The position numbers and the translations under genes are program-made. The notes below the pieces were generated by a model. The model was not told the DNA's origin. It saw nothing but the letters and a program-made list of their open reading frames with translations, and did not search any database. A stretch of 64,000 nt of DNA from sequence record NC_094493.1; one strand, written 5' to 3'. This stretch comes from a phage. This document shows, piece by piece, positions 1 through 64,000 of the stretch (position 1 is the first letter of the stretch; each line of letters opens with the position of its first letter).

Positions 1-1212
1 ATAAGCGATCTGCAGCAGAAGCGAATGCCTGACTGCAAGATACCTATGAAAATCAGCAATCAGGACGACATTAAGCGATACCTGATCAGTGCTGGTTGGC
101 TTCCGACAATGTGGAGAACTAAGGATGTAACTAAAGACAGCAAGAAGAAAGCTCTACCTGATGCAGATGTTGATGCACGAGTATATGCATACATGGACGA
201 GCTTTTAGAGTCAGAGTATTGTGACCTAATTATCAACTTCTGGAACAAAACTGATGCTAAGTTTCAGACAACAGTGCACAAGTTCCGAAGCTTTCCTAAC
301 TCCGAAAGGATTAAAAAGGAAGTATTCGGGAAAATACGTAGAAAAGCTAGGGCACTTATTACTTCTCCGCAACTGAAAGATACGTTTGGACACCTATGTC
401 CGAATCTTGAAAAATTGAACGGAGAGATGGCTAAGGATATCGTCTTGTGGTTATCCTTGCGAAACCGCAGATCGGTCCTTGATCCAATCAAGGAGGATAA
501 GGTTGATACTGGTCTTCTTAATCACCCACGCTTGAAGATTGACCATAAGCTTCCTGCTAAAAGCTCCGGATTAACAAACACTTCCAGACAGAAACACAGC
601 ATTTGTGCAAACATGCCTAAACCCTCTCCTAAAGTGGTTATGGGTAAGGAGATGCGTAGCTTGTGGGGTGTTCCTCCTGGATACTTTGAGATCGGTATTG
701 ACGGGTCCAACTTAGAGCAGCTTATCGGGGCTTGGGGTGCCTTTGAGTTCGACAACGGCTTGTATTATGATGTTGTAAGTAACGGGGACGCACACCAAAA
801 CAATGCTGAGGCATATACAAAAGTAGCAGGCAGAGAGGTGTCTCGTAACGACGGTAAACCTATCACGTATGGGGTTATGTACGGGGCACAAAAAGATAAA
901 GTTGCAGATATGCTGGACATCTCTCCAGAGTTGGGACAAAGGGTAATCGATGCACTCTGGGATGCCAACCCTGGTCTTAAGGGGCGCAAAGAGGATCTGG
1001 AGAAATTCTGGGAAGCAACAGGTAAGAAGTTTATCTACTCTTTTGATGGTCATGCTATCTGGACCCGATCTAAACACTCTTTACTTAATGCATACCAACA
1101 GAATGGTGGTGCATCGCTGTGTGACTTGGTTGGGATACTTATGCACCACCAAATGGTGAAGCGTGGGTGGTACGATGAAGGTGTTCGTCGTATTATTTAT
1201 TACCATAAATAA
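1..1212 (+). CDS. DNA polymerase, family A (Pol I/T7-like), C-terminal region; 5' end lies outside the window
   Basis: Frame is open from base 1. Motif A-like IDGSNLEQL and motif B-like RxxxxGKxITYGVMYG; segment after motif B aligns by eye with T7/Klenow up to just before motif C. No HDE motif before the stop. Confidence 0.65.
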   Translation: MSDLQQKRMPDCKIPMKISNQDDIKRYLISAGWLPTMWRTKDVTKDSKKKALPDADVDARVYAYMDELLESEYCDLIINFWNKTDAKFQTTVHKFRSFPNSERIKKEVFGKIRRKARALITSPQLKDTFGHLCPNLEKLNGEMAKDIVLWLSLRNRRSVLDPIKEDKVDTGLLNHPRLKIDHKLPAKSSGLTNTSRQKHSICANMPKPSPKVVMGKEMRSLWGVPPGYFEIGIDGSNLEQLIGAWGAFEFDNGLYYDVVSNGDAHQNNAEAYTKVAGREVSRNDGKPITYGVMYGAQKDKVADMLDISPELGQRVIDALWDANPGLKGRKEDLEKFWEATGKKFIYSFDGHAIWTRSKHSLLNAYQQNGGASLCDLVGILMHHQMVKRGWYDEGVRRIIYYHK

Positions 1213-1458
1213 CATTGTGGCTTCATAGAGTAATCTATGTCGAATAACCTCTTTAACTGCGGGAAGCCTAAACCTTATGGCAAGGTAATCCGCAACGAAG
1301 CGCTCAAAAGAGCGAACGCTCAGAGGCCATTCCGAAAGGAAGTAGACCAGCAAGTGCGGTCGAAATGGGAGGATTCCTGTGGTTGCTTATCATAGGAATA
1401 TGAGATGGTCCGATCCTACGTGAAAACGTATGGCTATGCACGTAATGGTGCGGGGTAG
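1213..1458 (+). other. Structured non-coding insert between the two polymerase ORFs; candidate group I intron
   Basis: In-frame stops separate two same-frame polymerase ORFs. Contains P-like TGCGGGAAG and Q-like AATCCGCAA elements in canonical order, plus several short hairpins with GAAA/GCAA loops. Confidence 0.3.
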
Positions 1459-4317: not shown

Positions 4318-4563
4318 ATGGCTGAAGTAGTTGCTCGCGCAGGACAGAAAGTACGTTGTGTGGAAGTAGGTTTTGGTGGCAAAGGGTGTCAAAACTTGAC
4401 TCAAGGTAAGGAATACGCTGTTATTTCTGGTGGTGGCGACGAGAGTATTGTGTTCGAGGGCCACATCCTGGATGCTGAAAACTTTGAAATCTTTGACGAC
4501 GATGGAGATCCGATCACCTGCCTGCTGGACGGGAATTGGGGAACTTTCGAAGTGATTGGCTAA
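4318..4563 (+). CDS. hypothetical protein
   Basis: ORF with RBS caggagacc. Confidence 0.5.
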   Translation: MAEVVARAGQKVRCVEVGFGGKGCQNLTQGKEYAVISGGGDESIVFEGHILDAENFEIFDDDGDPITCLLDGNWGTFEVIG

Positions 4564-20849: not shown

Positions 20850-23290
20850 GCTCTTCCCCCTACCATAAACGGCCCTACCTGGCAAGTGGAATAATTGACG
20901 AGCCATCAATCCCACACACTGTACAAATATACATGTAAAATAGCTATTGCATAACCTTTCATTGTGTGGTAGCAGGGCTATTTTTACCCGTTTTCCCTTC
21001 CAAAATTGCACGTAATGCCGCTATTGCACAAATTTTAACCTGATGCACATCTCCAATATCTTGTCAACAACTAAAAATCTTTATAAGTCATACACTTACA
21101 CAACATAGAAAGCGTGTCCTACGCGAAAAATCGAGTATAACTATAGCCGCCAGATCTCAGAATTCACGTACGCACGCCATTCTATAGCCTGCAAAGTATT
21201 TATTCCAACCACAGAATAACGGAATAGTCAATACCTGCATAAAATAATTATTCGTGTAAACTGCATAACATAAATCAGCTCAGGTGTCAACATTTTTCGT
21301 AAACAGTCCGAAATTATCACGATGAGTTATCATAAACAGAGAAATCTTTAGTCGTCTAATGTTTACTGTACATTACTATACTGACTGGAATCATTAGATG
21401 ACTAAGAGAAAGATAAGAAATAATTAATAATGTGATTATTTTACCTGTAACAATAAGGCAACTATGCAAACGAATGGCATGGCGCGACGGAGTCGCGACA
21501 TAATATAAAAGCAGTAACCATCACCCCCGTGATAGTTTGTCTGCAATCTATTAATCAGATCATAGTTGCCTTGTATTTAGTTAATCATGACATAACAAGC
21601 AAGGCAACTATAGATCTTCTAATAGTTGCCCTGCTTTTATATTATGTCATAGAAACACCCGAAGGGGTGACCAAAGGTCACCTGGCATAGCCAGCGAAAG
21701 ATTATTAACTTGCTAATCGTTATCATGCAAACGAATGGCATGGCTTATAATTTTTGAGCAAATAGTCTATACGTGAACAGTGAGGCATGCAATAGTAACA
21801 ATTGTTATTATATCCAGTGTTTAGTTTGCCCAGTGTGTCACTATTATGTCATATTATGTCACAGTATGTCAGACAAGTTTTTCTCCTCTTTGTCAAGTGC
21901 TGCATGAAAAATTTACAAGCTGGTATGGTAGCATTTTTGCGGTCCTGTTTACATTCAGTAATGTATGTATAATCCTTGTTGTGTGGGCGTTTAGACGTCT
22001 AGACGGTTGGAAGTCCACAGGTCAATATCTAATCTATCGGCTGCTAACTATATCCCACACAAATAGTAAGAAATATGATTGTTATATGCGTAAACAGTAA
22101 CTCATGTTATCAATCCCTGTATGTATCGCCAGTGGTGCGCATAATGGGTATTATGTTAAATTGCCCGTAATGATAATGGTTCTCACAATGATATGTATTC
22201 TCATTCCCCCACACAAAATAGATTGCAAATGTTGTGCCACTATGTGAACGGCCTCACCTATTAATTTGCCTCACTGCCTCGATATTTGAGAATTGTTATA
22301 AGAATGAGAATGATTCCCATTTCGTCCGCCTGGCAGCACTCCTGTAGGACAAGCACAAAATCGTGGCATAGCTGGACCTGTTCAGATATTTCTGGCTGGC
22401 TCTTCAGGTCTGTGTGGGAAAAGCCAACCCCCTCCGGCGGCGGGGAGGGTGTCAATTAAAAAATTTATGGGGTATATGAAGCGCTCTTCAGGTAAGGCAT
22501 GTACTATGGGATGAAACCCTCTTCAGGCAATGATATTTGTGGGTGTGATATTTGCTGGAAAGCCAGATATGACGGGACTCCCGGCGGGGCAGGGGTAGTA
22601 CAGACAGGGAAAATATGGGGATGTAGTTGGGTGAATTGATCGGGCAGGTAGAGTACGGAATATGTTACAAGTATGTTAAATATGGAGGGTGAATATCTGC
22701 AGGATTTGTGTGTAAAATCAAAGACTTAAGTAGTGTTGTGGTATTTTCTATAAATAATTCAAGTTTAATAGGTAATATTTGTCTCTATCCACTTTGTGTG
22801 GTAAACAAATTCAAATGAGATTGGTTTACAAGTGTATACATAATATGCAAATTAAAGATACAAGAAACCCCCCTCCCCCTTCGGCTACCATTCACCTTTT
22901 CCTCTGACTGGTACTTAAACACTTATTCAGACTCTTCAGGTTATCACCCATACACCATATGGCAGTGACTGGTGTCCTCCGGCCCCTCTTTCGTCACCCG
23001 TCCGCTTCGCCATGCTAATGCCATAGCCAAATGTTCGGTTGTTCACCCTGTTCACTCAGGTGTATCTCCATACCCCTTCAAACCGAAGAGAACAGAAAAC
23101 CCGAATTACTCGGTAAAAGAAAAGAGAAGAACTTAATTTTATCAGGATAGGCAAGAATGTCAAGGCATGACTGCTCACTAAACAAGCAAACAGTCATGTG
23201 TGGGAGGTAAGTGATTGTGGTGGTAGGAAATTTAGTTGAAAGATGTGTTATAGGTGCTTCCAGCACTTTAGCCTGGCAGCTAATTGTGTG
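20850..23290. other. ~2.4 kb non-coding, repeat-rich convergence region between the + and - gene blocks
   Basis: No convincing ORF. Short direct repeats (AACGAATGGCATGGC x2; GGCAACTAT/ATAGTTGCC in both orientations; TATGTCA x3; CTCTTCAGG x3); GC hairpins around 22430 and 22580. Confidence 0.5.
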
Positions 23291-48376: not shown

Positions 48377-48835
48377 TTAGAAGTTTGTTTTTACACGTCC
48401 CTTTTCATCTACCTCATTGTTAGCTAAAAGCGTTACAAAGTCTGTGAAACGGACATGAAGAACTCTTTTCTTGTCAAGGTATCCTAAAGCCACCCCTGAA
48501 AAATTTAGCATCAAGGGGGCTAAAGAAGCTCTAGCACTGAAATGCTGTTGTTCTACTCTTCCTACACCCTTAGTGTAGGATGGGTTAAGATTGTAAGTTC
48601 TGAATCCCAGTTTTGTTGGAGCTTTAGAATTAAAAACAACTTTATAGCGTTTCTTACTCAACTTATGCTCCAGGATAAGAATTCCCTTATCACCCTTGAT
48701 AAGTTGAAAATCTGTAAAGTGCTCTTTTAAGACGAAAGGTAGTGCCAGTCCCATCGCCTGCCCTCTTTGTACCGCTGTCTCACCAAAAGCTTTCGCATCA
48801 GTGAGTTCTTTGGTCAAGTCTATGCTTTTGATCAT
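48377..48835 (-). CDS. hypothetical protein
   Basis: ORF with RBS ggagacc; overlaps the 3' end of the upstream methyltransferase ORF. Confidence 0.45.
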   Translation of the reverse strand: MIKSIDLTKELTDAKAFGETAVQRGQAMGLALPFVLKEHFTDFQLIKGDKGILILEHKLSKKRYKVVFNSKAPTKLGFRTYNLNPSYTKGVGRVEQQHFSARASLAPLMLNFSGVALGYLDKKRVLHVRFTDFVTLLANNEVDEKGRVKTNF

Positions 48836-58879: not shown

Positions 58880-59230
58880 TCAGTAGATGTTTTGTTTAAT
58901 CTCTATTCCAAACTTTTTAAACGAGTCAGCTGCAAGCATGAATTTACGAGCCGCTGATGGATTAGAAGTATGTACGAAAATCTTCACGTTGTCAACCACG
59001 GGAGGCTTACCGAATACAAATTTTTCCTCCAACATGGATAGGCAATCGTATCCTTCGAATACTTCTCCTAGGTCGTTGTCCATATGCCACTCAGAAACGC
59101 GTCTGTAGAGCTTTCCCTTATCGTTAATAAAATCCATAAACTCGGAGGAATTCTTCAGCCAAACAGCGTCTGGGAGCCCGTAATTTGACGGATCTCTTAA
59201 GTCATCTAGCCACACAATCAACTTCTTCAT
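58880..59230 (-). CDS. hypothetical protein
   Basis: 116 aa ORF between the Sir2-like and RNA ligase genes. Confidence 0.45.
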   Translation of the reverse strand: MKKLIVWLDDLRDPSNYGLPDAVWLKNSSEFMDFINDKGKLYRRVSEWHMDNDLGEVFEGYDCLSMLEEKFVFGKPPVVDNVKIFVHTSNPSAARKFMLAADSFKKFGIEIKQNIY

Positions 59231-60680: not shown

Positions 60681-61235
60681 ATGAAATACTTTGTAACAAG
60701 CGACACACACTTTCTCCACCAGCGGGTCATGGAGTTTGATTCATGTCAAAAACACAGATCTCAGTATGATCACAATCTTGACAGTATGAATGCGGGAATC
60801 ATCACCAAGTGGAACTCTGTTGTGTCACCTGCAGACACTGTGTTTCACTTGGGAGATATTGCGTGCACTAATGATAAGAATATCAACAAATTGCTCCCAG
60901 ATGTTCTAAATATGTTGAACGGACATATTATTCTTGTTCGTGGTAACCATGACACAAGGACGACTGTCAGAATTATGAAAGAGTTCGGTCATGAGGTTGT
61001 AGATTATTACGAGCTTCGCCACAACAAGAATTTGATCTGTATGAGCCATTACCAGTTTGCAAAGTGGAACAGAAAGCCTCACGGATCAGTCCAACTGTTC
61101 GGTCATGCTCACGGAACCACACAGCAGTTGTTTGGCAGGCAGTTTGATGTCGGTTGGGATGTGTGGGGGAGACTCTTACCATTAGAAGAGGCATACCGTA
61201 TTGCAATGAGTCTTGCTATTGACAGCGGGGAGTAA
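60681..61235 (+). CDS. Calcineurin-like metallophosphoesterase
   Basis: SDTHF, HLGDI, GNHD, GHAHG metallophosphatase motifs; RBS aaatgagga. Confidence 0.65.
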   Translation: MKYFVTSDTHFLHQRVMEFDSCQKHRSQYDHNLDSMNAGIITKWNSVVSPADTVFHLGDIACTNDKNINKLLPDVLNMLNGHIILVRGNHDTRTTVRIMKEFGHEVVDYYELRHNKNLICMSHYQFAKWNRKPHGSVQLFGHAHGTTQQLFGRQFDVGWDVWGRLLPLEEAYRIAMSLAIDSGE

Positions 61236-61282
61236 TCCCTGCTATTTTAAAGAAAATTGCCACACAAGGAGAATCAGGAGAT

Positions 61283-61633
61283 ATGAAAGATGGGGATAAG
61301 CTGCTATATCTTAAAGTCCCCCTTGAAATACTGTCTATGTCAAAAGTTTTGAATGACACAACTGGGGAGGTTGTTGTTCTTGACTTATATGACAAGATCG
61401 TATACTGCTACCTGCACAACTGGTATAAGCTTGGAGGAAATTCACGCTTCACACCCAGCACAAGGAAAATTGCAGCAGATGTTGGGATAAAGAAAACAAA
61501 AGCAGCAGCGTGCGTTAAAACTTTAGAATGTGCAGGAGTGGTTGAAATATCCACACAAGGGAGAGGTAAAAGATGTACATTTTCCAAAGTTTTGCCACCA
61601 GAAGAGGTTATTCGAATGTCAACAACTGGTTAG
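61283..61633 (+). CDS. HTH DNA-binding protein (putative replication initiator or regulator)
   Basis: Helix-turn-helix-like STRKIAADVGIKKTKAAACVKTLECAGVVE; immediately upstream of the palindrome array. Confidence 0.5.
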   Translation: MKDGDKLLYLKVPLEILSMSKVLNDTTGEVVVLDLYDKIVYCYLHNWYKLGGNSRFTPSTRKIAADVGIKKTKAAACVKTLECAGVVEISTQGRGKRCTFSKVLPPEEVIRMSTTG

Positions 61634-61706
61634 ACCAGTAAAAACTTAAATATCTGTACTATAAGGATTCGTATGTTTTATGTTCGCTCTGGAACAGAGG
61701 TCAGTA

Positions 61707-61790
61707 ACTGTCCGTGATACGGACACTACTGTCCGTCACGCGGACACATCTGCCCGTAATACGGACACTAACTGTCCGTGATACGGACAC
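61707..61790. repeat. Four tandem 21-bp imperfect palindromes (iteron/operator array)
   Basis: ACTGTCCGTGATACGGACACT repeated four times head-to-tail with minor variation; each is a GTCCGT-N3-ACGGAC palindrome. Confidence 0.75.
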
Positions 61791-61920
61791 ATAAAGAATA
61801 TAACTAAAATAACTAAATAATAAAAATAAAAGATCTAGTACTTATGGTACTAAGTACATATACTTAACTTATGTAGAATATACTAGATCCTAAGTACCAT
61901 GTTTTAAAATTATTACTTAC
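61791..61920. other. AT-rich tract adjacent to the palindrome array (possible DNA unwinding element)
   Basis: About 80 percent A+T over ~130 bp, with palindromes AGTACTTA/TAAGTAC. Confidence 0.45.
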
Positions 61921-62160
61921 TATAGGTAGTGTCGGCCCTTCATTGGCACTCGCCTACGAGGGGCGAGATGCCGGGCCTCCTTGGTGCACACAATAACAGA
62001 AGTGCATACATGCAGGTCTGTTAACATGTGTGGGAGCGAAGCGATAGCGCAGGCCAAAGGCCGAGCACTGATGTGGACCACCGACGAAAGCTTGCCAGCG
62101 CCGTAAGGAGTCGGTTGAGAGTCTCCCGCGCGAGCTTGGATGAAGTTTATGTGTGGAAAC
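61921..62160. ncRNA. GC-rich structured island (candidate ncRNA)
   Basis: Sharp rise in G+C with many short complementary segments; the only ORF is a - strand R/P/C-rich artefact. Confidence 0.25.
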
Positions 62161-62292
62161 TGACAAGAAGGCCCCTAAATCGCTCCACAGCTATATAAAC
62201 TATACCAGGTAATGCAATCGCACCAGTTTGATAGAAAAGCTCGTTACAAAGTGATACAGTGAGTTTTTCTATAACTTGAAGAGGAGGCGGCT

Positions 62293-62871
62293 ATGGGTTC
62301 ACGCAAAGATGACCGTGAAAAGATTGCAAAACGTTATCAGAATGAAGAACAGATGGAGAAAACTTTCAAATGGAAGCCTGGTTTCCAGCGTAATCATTCT
62401 AACGCTCGTGATCGTAAGCATCCAGATAAGTGGCTAACACCGCCAAATGATGGCATGCAGGTTGGTGATGAGAAGGAGATGTCACCTGGAAAAGATGGCA
62501 ACTACATTCGCACTAAGGAAGCTGGTCCAAAGGATGACAGCTATCTTGTAGATAAGGTTCTTAATGGTATTGATGTAGATGTTGACACTGCACGAAACCT
62601 TTTTCTTGGTTGGTATCGTACAGGGTTTTTCGACATCAAGGCTATTCGTCGTGTTTGTGATATTAAAAAGTCTGCCTATGATGATGACTCCCTACATCGC
62701 ACTCTGAGACAATACTCAGAGAGATACGGTCATCCAGTTATCACTCTTGACGATATTAACGAAGTGATGTATCATGCAGAGGTTGTTGCAGGTAGATTCG
62801 GTGATGCATATCTAGATATCCTTTCTGCAAAGGATGAGGTAATGTTAAATAAGATTTACTATGAACGCTGA
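62293..62871 (+). CDS. hypothetical protein
   Basis: 192 aa ORF with strong RBS gaagaggaggcggct ATG. Confidence 0.55.
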   Translation: MGSRKDDREKIAKRYQNEEQMEKTFKWKPGFQRNHSNARDRKHPDKWLTPPNDGMQVGDEKEMSPGKDGNYIRTKEAGPKDDSYLVDKVLNGIDVDVDTARNLFLGWYRTGFFDIKAIRRVCDIKKSAYDDDSLHRTLRQYSERYGHPVITLDDINEVMYHAEVVAGRFGDAYLDILSAKDEVMLNKIYYER

Positions 62872-62881
62872 GGGGTGCTTA

Positions 62882-63070
62882 ATGAACAATCCGGTAGCAA
62901 AGAACTGTAATAAGTTCAACAAGTCTGCAATTCACACTGACAGGAAAAAGAGCTGGTCTCCTGACATTGACGAGGAGCTTGAGAGTTACTTTGAAGACAT
63001 GGTCACCAATGCAGATGAGGTTGCGATTAAAGAATACGCAGACAGGAAGGATAAGGCCGGAATCTGTTGA
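62882..63070 (+). CDS. hypothetical protein
   Basis: RBS gaggggtgctta ATG. Confidence 0.45.
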   Translation: MNNPVAKNCNKFNKSAIHTDRKKSWSPDIDEELESYFEDMVTNADEVAIKEYADRKDKAGIC

Positions 63071-63146
63071 CAAAAATAGTGTTACCTGATAAGATCTGCA
63101 ATATGATGTGATGCAATTTTAACTTACGAGGTCTACAGGTAATGCT

Positions 63147-63389
63147 ATGTTTAAGGTTAAGCTCGTTTTTCGTTCCATGAATGAGGATTATTTAGAAGAT
63201 GAAGGTGAATTTCGTGCACTGGATGATGCAATAGATTTTGCCAACGACTTAGCTTGTATGAATACAGGTTATGGGCTATGTTGTTGGGATGGTGGTGTTC
63301 AGATCGGTGATAGCAAGATCTTCTACTTCTACCCTGAGCCTGATAACAAACAAATTAAGTATGTTTTATTTATTTGTGCTTTACAATGA
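63147..63389 (+). CDS. hypothetical protein
   Basis: 80 aa ORF. Confidence 0.4.
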   Translation: MFKVKLVFRSMNEDYLEDEGEFRALDDAIDFANDLACMNTGYGLCCWDGGVQIGDSKIFYFYPEPDNKQIKYVLFICALQ

Positions 63390-63469
63390 GGTTGTTTTCG
63401 TGTATCATGATGAATATCCAATTTAAAGATGAATTTGATGGCTTTATCTCTGGATGCTTTGAAACAGGG

Positions 63470-63690
63470 TTCGGAGAAGGCTGAGTTCCCCTTAGAGGGC
63501 TTGATAGTGCACCACACTTAAAATGGTAGGGGCAGCCAGCACATGACGATGTGACCCCAGCCAACCTGTAACAAGGTCGAGCCGAAGCGCGGGTAATAGG
63601 CCTCTGGTAACCCACTTGTTGGGTCTTGCTGGTCCAGGACGCTGGACAAGTCGCAGGGAATACCACCCTGCGGCGAACTTGACAATCAGT
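63470..63690. ncRNA. GC-rich structured island (candidate ncRNA)
   Basis: High G+C with many complementary segments, upstream of promoter-like TTGACA at ~63679; - strand ORF there has artefactual composition. Confidence 0.25.
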
Positions 63691-63735
63691 ATTTGCTATG
63701 ATAAAATCCACCTATCACGTGATAATGGAGGAAAC

Positions 63736-64000
63736 ATGGCGGATACAACTAAAAAGCGTCGCCGTAGAGGCAGACCTCTGAAAGAGGAGTCCAACGCCAT
63801 TCAGCTAGAGAAGAACATCCTTGATATGAAGGAATCTTTTATAGCGATGGTTCCAGAAGCTCACAAAGTTTTAAGAGAGCTGATGTTGGACCCGAAAACC
63901 AAACAAAATATTCGTCAAAGCATTGCAGAGTATGTTCTTGATAAGGCAGACCGAATGCAGGAAGAATATGATGAGATGTTTGGTGAAGAGGAAGAGGTGG
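63736..64000 (+). CDS. hypothetical protein, partial (3' end outside the window)
   Basis: RBS ggaggaaac ATG; basic N-terminus (KKRRRRGRP) then acidic region; ORF open to window end. Confidence 0.5.
   Translation, partial: MADTTKKRRRRGRPLKEESNAIQLEKNILDMKESFIAMVPEAHKVLRELMLDPKTKQNIRQSIAEYVLDKADRMQEEYDEMFGEEEEV

What the first reader, a model, noticed from the sequence alone, without database searches (positions are those of the whole stretch)
61283..61920. Origin-like module: HTH protein gene, four tandem 21-bp palindromes, AT-rich tract
Directly after a small HTH protein gene lie four head-to-tail copies of ACTGTCCGTGATACGGACACT, phased every 21 bp (two helical turns), followed by ~130 bp of ~80 percent A+T. 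This is the classic layout of an iteron-type replication origin (initiator sites plus unwinding element), or alternatively a strong multi-site operator.
Basis: seen in the sequence. Interest (0 to 1): 0.65.

Follow-up and report, generated by a model that had tools for sequence, protein, structure and literature searches.

The report
Probable replication origin of rV5-like phage
In this rV5-like E. coli phage, a small DNA-binding protein related to known replication initiators sits next to four evenly spaced binding-site repeats and the most easily melted DNA in the window; this is most likely the phage's still-unmapped replication origin, of a familiar (lambda / RepA_N) kind.

Summary
The window is a Vequintavirus (rV5-like myophage). 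A 116-aa winged-helix gene lies at 61283-61633. It is followed by four 21/21/22-bp-phased palindromes (TGTCCGT-N3-ACGGACA, 61707-61790). Next comes a 130-bp, 80% A+T, A-strand-biased tract (61791-61920), the most AT-rich and least stable stretch of the 64 kb.

The origin reading is supported by four lines of evidence.
1. The protein's closest solved relatives, by sequence (E 1.4e-6) and by fold (Foldseek E 9.5e-6), are the N-terminal DNA-binding domains of RepA_N initiators. These include Vibrio PLE RepA (4RO3) and staphylococcal RepA, which bind semi-palindromic iterons as dimers.
2. A pattern scan of viral contigs found the same TGTCCG-N5-CGGACA sites in unrelated phages: 3-7 copies, 20-25 bp apart, followed by an A-rich tract. 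They lie inside "replication initiation / O-like" genes just after the winged helix, as in lambda.
3. The array (distance 0.024) and the AT tract (0.056) evolve far more slowly than synonymous sites (0.25-0.64).
4. Related genera pair a similar small protein with different tandem palindromes plus an AT tract.

The genome ends lie about 39 kb away. Nothing is shown experimentally. It is a new member of a known kind, with a twist: the initiator is reduced to its DNA-binding domain and the iterons lie outside the ORF.

The parts
61219..61248 (+). Sigma-70-type promoter (TTGACA-18-TATTTT with upstream TG) in front of the initiator-like gene. It is annotated P76 in rV5.
   Evidence: Consensus scan gives 10 of 12 matches. 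The same site is annotated as a promoter in NC_011041. No terminator-like site lies between it and the array, so transcription probably runs through the module (inference).
61283..61633 (+). Gene for a 116-aa winged-helix protein (rV5 ORF79/gp075). It has the fold of a RepA_N/DUF6945-type initiator DNA-binding domain and carries no C-terminal domain.
   Evidence: Pfam: DUF6945 27.1 bits (cutoff 28) and HTH_36 24.5 bits (cutoff 25). PHROGs: 12838, 8102, 428 and 270, all 'replication initiation protein'. phmmer against PDB: 4RO3 at E 1.4e-6. AF2 model: pLDDT 82.7. Foldseek top hits: 4RO3, 4PQL, 4PT7, 5KBJ. dN/dS is 0.105 against the most divergent lineage.
61634..61706 (.). Spacer between the stop codon and the array. 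It is poorly conserved.
   Evidence: 76.7% identity to L005, JC distance 0.279, which is close to the synonymous rate.
61707..61790 (.). Array of four tandem 21/21/22-bp units, the putative iterons. The palindromic cores TG(T/C)CCG-N5-CGGACA are at 61709-61725, 61730-61746, 61751-61767 and 61773-61789.
   Evidence: TRF, pattern search with shuffles and repeat finder. Across Vequintavirus lineages only the central 5 bp and position 3 of the left arm vary; the arms and inter-site spacers are invariant. JC distance is 0.024, against dS of 0.25-0.64 in neighbouring genes.
61791..61920 (.). A+T-rich, strand-asymmetric tract, the putative DNA-unwinding element. It contains two GATC sites and two interleaved inverted repeats: GATCTAGTA 61832-61840 with TACTAGATC 61881-61889, and ATGGTACTAAG 61844-61854 with CTAAGTACCAT 61890-61900.
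   Evidence: 80% A+T, with A 47-57% against T 27-33% on the + strand. It is the least stable 50- and 100-bp stretch of the window. Inverted repeat I9 comes; the other was read. 94.6% identical in the most divergent lineage. Its 11-mers do not recur elsewhere in the window, apart from simple A-runs.
61921..62200 (+). Conserved G+C-rich (56-59%) non-coding island next to the AT tract. Whether it belongs to the module is uncertain; it may be a structured transcript or a DNA element.
   Evidence: Composition. RNA fold z-score -2.7. Substitutions are spread evenly over the codon positions of the annotated rV5 'ORF78' frame (5, 3, 4), so it is not coding. The core is almost invariant among lineages. 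No compensatory pairs and no Rfam family.

Best explanation
This is most likely the vegetative replication origin of Vequintavirus (rV5-like) phages, built on the lambda / RepA_N plan. The early gene at 61283-61633 makes a 116-aa winged-helix protein. This protein corresponds to the N-terminal, iteron-binding domain of RepA_N / O-like initiators. Dimers of it would bind the four palindromic sites, one dimer per TGTCCG-N5-CGGACA core. The sites lie two helical turns apart, so all dimers would sit on one face of the helix. The resulting nucleoprotein complex would bend and strain the DNA and open the adjacent 130-bp A-rich tract. That tract is the least stable DNA in the window. Transcription from the promoter at 61219-61248, which reads through the module, may help, as pR transcription does at ori-lambda. 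The phage's own primase-helicase and polymerase would then load on the bubble. Shown here: the anatomy, the homology and fold of the protein, the recurrence of the same site type in initiator genes elsewhere, and strong purifying selection. Inferred: binding, melting, helicase loading and the role of transcription.
For: (1) Anatomy: four phased palindromes followed by the window's most extreme AT-rich, strand-asymmetric tract. Ori-lambda has four partially symmetric 19-bp iterons next to a 49-bp A-T-rich, strand-asymmetric arm. O binds the iterons as dimers through its N-terminal half (PMC4488673, PMC3017604). (2) Protein: phmmer E 1.4e-6 to 4RO3. The confident AF2 model (pLDDT 82.7) has as best PDB matches 4RO3 (E 9.5e-6, TM 0.66), then 4PQL, 4PT7, 5KBJ and 4PTA. 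PMC7145576 identifies 4RO3 as the NTD of PLE RepA. That protein was shown by EMSA and genetics to bind the PLE ori iterons. The other hits are staphylococcal RepA_N NTDs, one of them in complex with iteron DNA. PHROG hits are all 'replication initiation protein'. BFVD neighbours include 'replication protein' and DUF6945 phage proteins. (3) An IMG/VR scan for CGGACA-N5-TGYCCG-N5-CGGACA returned 24 loci, none similar to the window by blastn. In 19 of them (7 lineages), 3-7 such sites phased 20-25 bp apart lie inside an ORF, 86-190 codons from its start. They sit just after a winged helix and are followed by a locally A-rich tract. In 6 of the 7 lineages the ORF hits replication-initiator / O-like PHROGs or HTH_36. 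In the window the array starts at the equivalent of codon 142. hhalign of the window family against those N-terminal domains gives probability 83%, E 9e-6. (4) Constraint: JC distance is 0.024 for the array and 0.056 for the AT tract, against dS 0.64, 0.48 and 0.25 in the three neighbouring genes and 0.279 in the spacer. The gene's dN/dS is 0.105. Variation is confined to the central 5 bp of the sites. (5) Other genera show the same layout with different sequences. PVP-SE1 and Mydovirus NDO71 have two 24-bp tandem units (ATTCCC-N4/5-GGGAAT) plus an AT/GATC tract next to a 117-121-aa protein. That protein has weak HTH_36 (E 0.013) and DnaD-like N-terminal (PHROG 186, 2.7e-5) hits. The DUF6945 homologues P0019 and P0017 also have two 23-bp tandem repeats plus a TA-rich tract beside the gene. 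(6) The module lies about 1.5 kb from the divergence point of the leftward and rightward transcription units and the local cumulative GC-skew minimum. The rV5 paper reports a skew switch at that divergence point but could not define an origin (PMC3606486).
Against: There is no experimental evidence of binding or initiation. The protein falls just under the curated Pfam cut-offs: DUF6945 27.1 against 28, HTH_36 24.5 against 25. It lacks any C-terminal domain or SSB-tip-like tail, which full-length initiators and its own distant homologues carry, so how a helicase would be recruited is unexplained. Winged-helix domains of this type also occur in transcription factors. The similarity to PVP-SE1 gp098 is weak: BLASTP E 0.017, hhalign probability 56%. 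DnaA-box-like sites are not clearly enriched. Large lytic phages can also start replication from R-loops or recombination intermediates, so an initiator-dependent origin is not required. The IMG/VR pattern was derived from this array, and 5 of the 24 loci carry only 1-2 sites in unrelated contexts.
Confidence: 0.65

Rival explanations
1. Multi-site operator or transcriptional roadblock. The winged-helix protein is a transcription factor. Cooperative binding to four phased palindromes would control transcription passing from the early genes (ATPase, phosphoesterase, this gene) into the downstream block (ORF77, tRNAs, lysis and late genes). Alternatively it would control a non-canonical promoter in the AT tract.
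For: GenBank submitters annotated the gene as 'putative transcriptional regulator'. Palindromic sites bound by dimers are typical of operators. The gene sits at the head of the long 81-to-27 transcription unit of rV5, which also holds late genes (PMC3606486). In PVP-SE1 the analogous repeats abut the -35 of the leftward early promoter (read). There is no terminator between the gene and the array.
Against: No sigma-70-like promoter lies in 61634-62292. The array lies downstream of its own gene, not over a promoter. The AT-tract motifs are not repeated upstream of other genes in the window. The nearest characterised relatives of the protein are initiators, not repressors. The same site type elsewhere sits inside initiator ORFs. 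An operator does not explain why the window's least stable DNA adjoins the array and is itself conserved.
Confidence: 0.17
2. Promoter and leader of a structured non-coding RNA. The AT tract holds a phage-specific promoter that drives the conserved G+C-rich 280-nt element (61921-62200). The palindromes regulate it. The RNA might even serve as a primer or R-loop former, in which case this rival merges with the origin model.
For: The G+C-rich island is non-coding by its substitution pattern. It is strongly conserved. It folds better than shuffled sequence, z -2.7, and is G-rich on the + strand.
Against: No promoter consensus was found. There are no compensatory base pairs and no Rfam match. The fold z-score is modest and similar on the minus strand, -2.2.
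Confidence: 0.1
3. Packaging or genome-end signal, or a partition (centromere-like) site bound by the small protein.
For: Tandem protein-binding repeats next to a small DNA-binding protein gene also describe pac or cos accessory sites and parC/parS sites. Several public contigs end at the array.
Against: Vequintaviruses have 458-459-bp direct terminal repeats (PMC6563267, PMC7471380). The HdK5 repeat (first 459 bp identical to the last 459 bp) maps to window 21.9-22.3 kb, about 39 kb from the module. The contig breaks are what short-k assemblers produce at 21-bp repeats. A strictly lytic phage has no obvious need for partition. The protein's fold is that of an initiator NTD, not ParR/ParB or a small terminase.
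Confidence: 0.03
4. Inactive relic of a decayed O-like / RepA_N gene, in which the N-terminal domain ORF and former in-frame iterons survive without function.
For: The layout looks like a full-length initiator gene cut after its first domain. The array is open in the same reading frame as ORF-embedded arrays elsewhere (read).
Against: dN/dS is 0.105 for the gene. The array and AT tract evolve 10-25 times more slowly than synonymous sites. All 118 related phage records keep the gene at 88.8% or higher protein identity.
Confidence: 0.03

Closest known systems
Bacteriophage lambda ori with O protein
   Same: Both have four tandem, partially symmetric initiator sites about two helical turns apart. 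In both, an A-T-rich, strand-asymmetric tract follows immediately. The sites are bound (in lambda) by dimers through the initiator's N-terminal winged-helix half. Both lie downstream of an early promoter whose transcription passes the origin (PMC4488673, PMC3017604).
   Different: Lambda's iterons lie inside the O reading frame, and O has a C-terminal domain that recruits P-DnaB. Here the ORF stops 73 bp before the array and there is no second domain. There is no Pfam Phage_rep_O match. The host phage is a 137-kb strictly lytic myovirus with its own primase-helicase (PMC3606486).
RepA_N initiators: Vibrio cholerae PLE RepA (PDB 4RO3) and Staphylococcus pSK41/pTZ2162 RepA (4PQL, 4PT7, 5KBJ)
   Same: These are the best sequence and fold matches of the 116-aa protein. 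Their NTD dimers bind semi-palindromic direct repeats at the cognate ori (PMC7145576).
   Different: Those proteins have a genus-specific C-terminal domain. Their iterons usually converge on a poly-A centre. There is no Pfam RepA_N hit here; the nearest Pfam models are DUF6945 and HTH_36, both just under their cut-offs.
HTH_36 / 'replication initiation O-like' phage proteins with embedded TGTCCG-N5-CGGACA arrays (IMG/VR loci L015, L019, L020, L025, L032, L035)
   Same: They share the same palindrome arms, the same 20-25-bp phasing, 3-7 copies, the same position relative to the winged helix, and an A-rich tract on the same side.
   Different: Those arrays are translated as part of a 143-387-aa initiator. 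Sequence similarity of the winged helix to the window protein is remote (hhalign probability 83%). None of these loci has been studied experimentally.
PVP-SE1 (Seunavirus) and NDO71 (Mydovirus) gp098-type protein with 24-bp tandem palindromes
   Same: They belong to the same subfamily. A 117-121-aa protein of the same architecture sits beside two tandem palindromic units and an AT-rich tract containing GATC.
   Different: The palindrome sequence is different (ATTCCC-N4/5-GGGAAT) and there are two copies, not four. The module lies upstream of the gene, in a divergent promoter region. Protein similarity is only marginal.

Membership tests
Iteron-type (lambda-like) replication origin | Three or more tandem initiator-binding repeats with helical phasing | tested here: met
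   Four units at 21, 21 and 22 bp. They are far above chance.
Iteron-type (lambda-like) replication origin | Adjacent A+T-rich DNA-unwinding element | tested here: met
   61791-61920 is 80% A+T. It ranks first in the window for AT content and for duplex instability, and is strand-asymmetric.
Iteron-type (lambda-like) replication origin | Cognate initiator gene in cis | tested here: met
   The adjacent gene encodes an initiator-type winged helix. Assigning it as the binder is an inference.
Iteron-type (lambda-like) replication origin | Initiator binds the repeats | not testable with these tools
   This needs EMSA, footprinting or ChIP. The only indirect support is that protein and repeat sequence differ together between genera.
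Iteron-type (lambda-like) replication origin | Replication starts here (copy-number peak, bubble arcs, or autonomous/infection-dependent plasmid replication) | not testable with these tools
   No data were found. The rV5 paper could not define the origin from skew (PMC3606486).
RepA_N / DUF6945 initiator family | N-terminal domain fold: beta-hairpin, three-helix winged helix, wing | tested here: met
   AF2 model pLDDT 82.7. Foldseek top hits are 4RO3, 4PQL, 4PT7 and 5KBJ. phmmer to 4RO3 gives E 1.4e-6.
RepA_N / DUF6945 initiator family | Passes the curated Pfam threshold of the family model | tested here: not met
   DUF6945 scores 27.1 bits against a cut-off of 28. HTH_36 scores 24.5 against 25. 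There is no RepA_N (PF06970) hit.
RepA_N / DUF6945 initiator family | C-terminal effector domain or tail | tested here: not met
   The protein ends 5-10 residues after the wing and last helix. Distant homologues carry 40-100 extra residues with SSB-tip-like ends.
RepA_N / DUF6945 initiator family | Semi-palindromic direct-repeat iterons | tested here: met
   7-3-7 palindromes repeated in tandem.
Lambda O family (Pfam Phage_rep_O) | Sequence match to Phage_rep_O; iterons inside the ORF | tested here: not met
   There is no Phage_rep_O hit at E<=1. The array lies 73 bp past the stop codon.
Transcriptional operator | Sites overlap or adjoin a promoter that they control | tested here: not met
   No sigma-70-type promoter on either strand in 61634-62292. 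Non-canonical phage promoters cannot be excluded.

The most novel reading that the evidence does not exclude
The origin may work with a minimal initiator that is only a DNA-binding domain. The adjoining, highly conserved G+C-rich, G-strand-biased non-coding element (61921-62200) would then be the second half of the machine. Transcribed through the opened AT tract, it would form a structured RNA or persistent R-loop that primes synthesis or loads the phage primase-helicase. That would make it a hybrid of an iteron origin and a ColE1/T4-type RNA-dependent origin.
Probability: 0.12. Interest if true: 0.65.

Novelty: new member of a known kind. Interest (0 to 1): 0.45.

Why it matters
rV5-like phages (Vequintavirus) are among the most often isolated E. 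coli phages. They are used in typing sets, in the BASEL collection and in therapy candidates. Their replication origin has never been mapped; the rV5 genome paper tried GC/AT skew and found only switches in transcription direction. A concrete, testable origin with a candidate initiator would have several uses. It would allow origin-based vectors or reporter constructs, and mutants with controlled replication. It would give a better reading of how satellites or defence systems might target these phages. It would also show that a RepA_N/O-type initiator can be reduced to its DNA-binding domain in a large lytic phage that brings its own replisome. Finally, it links a widespread, undescribed iteron type (TGTCCG-N5-CGGACA) to HTH_36 / O-like initiators.

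Tried and rejected
The following checks led nowhere or excluded an idea.
- Rfam found nothing in the module, either at gathering thresholds over the whole window or at relaxed thresholds over 61600-64000. The only hits there were a 20.7-bit 'rli43' match and a 15.2-bit STnc410 match at 63137-63194.
- ARAGORN found no tRNA or tmRNA in the window.
- The sigma-70 promoter and terminator scan found none in the intergenic region.
- tblastn against phages and the word-indexed protein search found the protein only in Vequintavirus. Distant relatives needed the full HMMER scan.
- The first AF2 run, with 5 near-identical sequences, was unusable (pLDDT 47).
- The phosphoesterase neighbour was used to find syntenic regions in PVP-SE1, Mydovirus, phi92-like and phAPEC8-like phages. 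Gene order there is rearranged. The protein after the phosphoesterase there is unrelated. Phi92-like and phAPEC8-like phages show an AT/GTAC-rich divergent region but no clear tandem palindromes.
- Genome terminus or pac site is rejected from the HdK5 terminal-repeat mapping.
- The annotated 56-aa 'ORF78' in the G+C-rich island is rejected as coding on its substitution pattern.
- RNA covariation in that island could not be assessed because there are no informative changes.
- DnaA-box count: 5 near-matches in 60.0-62.6 kb against 34 in 64 kb, too few to interpret.
- GATC is not enriched in the module.
- ICP1 ORF88, a fold neighbour, does not lie in the 54-66 kb stretch around the reported 60-kb ICP1 origin peak. 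This lead was dropped.
Full report
**Identity of the window**

The region 61200-62300 is 95-99.9% identical to 117 Vequintavirus (rV5-like) E. coli myophage records. The gene at 61283-61633 is rV5 ORF79/gp075. Submitters annotated it 'putative transcriptional regulator', and RefSeq/pharokka-style pipelines annotated it 'replication initiation protein'. Two records (naam, pangalan) mark the repeats only as 'repeat_region'. The rV5 genome paper tried to locate the origin by AT/GC skew. It found only switches tied to transcription direction, one of them at 66.7 kb in rV5. That position is the divergence point about 1 kb upstream of this gene (PMC3606486). I found no paper that discusses this module.

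**The observation**

- The ORF encodes 116 aa.
It is the strongest tandem array in the window.
- Each unit contains a 7-3-7 palindrome, TGTCCGT-NNN-ACGGACA. Start-to-start spacings are 21, 21 and 22 bp.
- With up to 3 mismatches the pattern occurs 10 times (counting both strands), against 0.96 expected. Apart from one 3-mismatch site at 48439, all matches are in the array.
- The next 130 bp are 80% A+T. At 60-, 100- and 130-bp scales this is the most AT-rich stretch of the 64 kb, and it has the weakest nearest-neighbour stacking energy.
- The tract is A-rich on the + strand: A 47-57% against T 27-33%.
- The array begins 73 bp after the stop codon.

**The protein**

- Pfam places it just under the cut-offs of DUF6945 (27.1 against 28 bits) and HTH_36 (24.5 against 25).
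- Its own PHROG (12838) and three more distant ones (8102, 428, 270) are all labelled 'replication initiation protein'.
- Against solved structures, the one significant sequence match is 4RO3 (E 1.4e-6, residues 12-90). Weak hits to RepA_N N-terminal domains follow.
- The family is tiny. There are five 90%-identity clusters, all Vequintavirus. A full HMMER scan of 1.84 billion representatives gave only 15 hits at E<=1e-3.
- The remote hits are mostly small DUF6945/HTH_36 proteins of 113-228 aa, plus a few longer multi-domain ones. Several end in acidic tails such as ...DEAPF...DPDAPF and ...EENPPF, which resemble the SSB C-terminal tip.
- With those sequences in the alignment, AlphaFold2 gives a confident model (pLDDT 82.7, pTM 0.77). 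It shows an N-terminal beta-hairpin, three helices, a beta-wing and a short last helix.
- Foldseek against the PDB ranks 4RO3 first (E 9.5e-6, TM 0.66), then 4PQL, 4PT7, 5KBJ and 4PTA.
- PMC7145576 states that 4RO3 is the N-terminal domain of RepA of the Vibrio cholerae satellite PLE. RepA is required for PLE replication and binds the semi-palindromic 'repeat 3' iterons of the PLE origin in EMSA. The same paper says the domain resembles the staphylococcal RepA_N initiators, which bind iterons as dimers (5KBJ).
- Among predicted viral structures, the nearest neighbours include proteins named 'replication protein', 'replication initiator protein' and DUF6945. A 105-aa Proteus phage Mydo protein is also among them.

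The protein is therefore an initiator-type DNA-binding domain, and nothing more. It stops a few residues after the wing.

**The sites elsewhere**

I scanned IMG/VR for CGGACA-N5-TGYCCG-N5-CGGACA. This gave 24 loci, none related to the window by blastn.
- Nineteen loci, falling into seven lineages, carry 3-7 TGTCCG-N5-CGGACA palindromes phased 20-25 bp apart (mostly 22).
- In every one of these the array lies inside an ORF, beginning 86-190 codons from the start. It sits immediately after a winged-helix domain and is followed by a locally A-rich tract.
- In six of the seven lineages the ORF hits HTH_36 and/or PHROGs named 'replication initiation protein' or 'replication initiation O-like'. Examples are L035 (phrog_391, 3.8e-25) and L015 (phrog_270, 1.1e-9).
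- This is the lambda arrangement. Ori-lambda lies inside gene O, with four 19-bp partially symmetric iterons, then a 49-bp A-T-rich strand-asymmetric arm. O binds through its N-terminal half as a dimer (PMC4488673, PMC3017604).
- From my own knowledge, RepA_N plasmids also carry their iterons inside repA.
- In the window the array would start at 'codon 142' of the gene, the same relative place. The reading frame, however, has ended.
- A profile comparison of the window family with the N-terminal domains of those initiators gives probability 83%, E 9e-6.
- Five of the 24 loci have only one or two sites in unrelated contexts and are probably chance matches.

**Conservation**

I compared the window with the most divergent Vequintavirus lineage available (L005-L007 and Aya; protein 88% identical).

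| Segment | Distance or rate |
|---|---|
| This gene, synonymous (dS) | 0.64 |
| Phosphoesterase gene, dS | 0.48 |
| ORF77, dS | 0.25 |
| Spacer 61634-61706 (JC) | 0.279 |
| Array (JC) | 0.024 |
| AT tract (JC) | 0.056 |
| G+C-rich island (JC) | 0.104 |
| This gene, dN/dS | 0.105 |

Among ten sequences, the six-base arms and the short inter-site spacers never change, apart from T/C at arm position 3. The central five bases do vary. That is the footprint expected for a dimer contacting two half-sites.

**Relatives in other genera**

- In PVP-SE1 (Seunavirus) and NDO71 (Mydovirus) the neighbouring genes are rearranged. The divergent early intergenic region there holds two 24-bp tandem units with the palindrome ATTCCC-N4/5-GGGAAT, then an AT-rich tract with several GATC sites.
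- Beside that region lies a 117-121-aa gene (gp098). It has the same length and sequence pattern, a weak HTH_36 hit (E 0.013), and a PHROG 186 'DnaD-like helicase loader' N-terminal hit (2.7e-5).
- Its direct similarity to the window protein is marginal: BLASTP E 0.011-0.017, hhalign probability 56%.
- Two metagenomic DUF6945 homologues show the same pairing. P0019 has two 23-bp repeats starting 12 bp after its stop codon, followed by a TA-rich tract with a 22-nt inverted repeat. P0017 has two 23-bp repeats plus an AT tract in the upstream divergent region.

Protein and repeat sequence thus change together while the layout stays the same. This is the best indirect evidence that the protein binds the repeats.

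**What it is not**

- It is not the genome end. Vequintaviruses have 458-459-bp direct terminal repeats (PMC6563267, PMC7471380). In HdK5 the first and last 459 bp are identical, and they map to window 21.9-22.3 kb.
- It is not an intrinsic terminator. No T-run follows the hairpins on either strand (one search finds none).
- It is not a recurring promoter motif.
- No sigma-70-like promoter is found in the 660-bp intergenic region.
- The promoter at 61219-61248 (rV5 P76) would send transcription through the module. This recalls transcriptional activation of ori-lambda by pR (PMC3017604). That role here is an inference.

**Mechanism proposed**

Dimers of the 116-aa protein occupy the four sites on one face of the helix. 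The complex distorts the DNA and opens the adjacent A-rich tract. The phage's own primase-helicase (gp4-like, per PMC3606486) and polymerase then assemble there.

The weak point is recruitment. The protein has no second domain and no SSB-like tail. Either melting alone suffices for a self-loading helicase, or another factor supplies the link. Candidates for such a factor are the product of the conserved downstream gene ORF77 (PHROG 12226, unknown function) or a transcript of the G+C-rich island.

I put about 0.85 on the protein binding the array, and about 0.65 on the module being a replication origin.

**The G+C-rich island (61921-62200)**

It is non-coding by its substitution pattern and its core is nearly invariant. 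It folds somewhat better than shuffled sequence (z -2.7). It shows no covariation and has no Rfam family. Its role is open. It underlies the 'novel case'.

**Verdict**

It is a new member of a known kind, an iteron origin of the lambda/RepA_N type. Two variant features stand out: an initiator reduced to its N-terminal domain, and iterons lying outside the ORF. Interest is moderate. It fills a gap for a common and practically important phage group and is directly testable, but it does not overturn anything.

Noticed in passing
window 61921-62200 (+): A conserved G+C-rich (56-59%) non-coding island lies right after the AT tract. rV5 annotates a 56-aa ORF78 here, but substitutions are spread evenly over codon positions (5, 3, 4). 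The core is nearly invariant, the RNA fold z-score is -2.7, and there is no Rfam hit and no covariation.
   Followed up: partly
window 63450-63680: A second G+C-rich (52-58%) non-coding island lies in a gap between annotated genes. It sits just upstream of a strong sigma-70-type promoter (TTGACA-17-TAAAAT with TG, 63679-63707; rV5 P74) and a few hundred bp before the tRNA cluster seen in relatives.
   Followed up: no
window 1197-1432 (+): Rfam group I catalytic intron match (RF00028), 64.7 bits against a gathering score of 50, E 4e-14, covering the full model.
   Followed up: no
window about 21872-22330: The 459-bp direct terminal repeat of phage HdK5 (its first and last 459 bp are identical) maps here at 92-93% identity. 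The physical genome end of this phage type therefore lies inside the window. AT-rich peaks at 21357-21456 and 22743-22842 flank it.
   Followed up: partly
proteins P0009, P0016, P0017, P0019 (distant homologues): DUF6945/HTH_36 relatives of the 116-aa protein carry long acidic C-terminal tails. The tails end in ...DEAPF, ...DPDAPF, ...EENPPF and ...DGENF, which resemble the SSB C-terminal tip (DDDIPF). This suggests recruitment of SSB-binding replication proteins. The window protein lacks such a tail.
   Followed up: no
L008 (ends at 1839) and L009 (ends at 4519); also MG065672.1: Public short-read contigs and one GenBank record end inside or just after the 21-bp repeat array. These are most likely assembly breaks at the repeats, not real ends.
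   Followed up: partly
CP057073.1 (PLSDB), 137,565 bp: A complete Vequintavirus genome is filed as a non-mobilizable E. coli 'plasmid' from pooled cattle faeces. It is the only plasmid-collection hit for the 116-aa protein (98.3% identity).
   Followed up: no
L012 1140-1330 (phage SD2) and L014 1950-2140 (tuntematon): Phi92-like and phAPEC8-like relatives have an AT-rich divergent intergenic region, next to the tRNA cluster in tuntematon. It is rich in GATC and GTAC motifs and is followed by a shared CTCGCTGCGCTCG motif. No tandem palindromes and no small winged-helix gene were seen there.
   Followed up: no
window 58880-59230 (-): A 116-aa protein next to the RNA ligase gene carries a precomputed Pfam hit to cREC_REC (PF20274) in related contigs. 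Two Sir2-like genes follow it. This could be an NAD- or defence-related early gene cluster.
   Followed up: no
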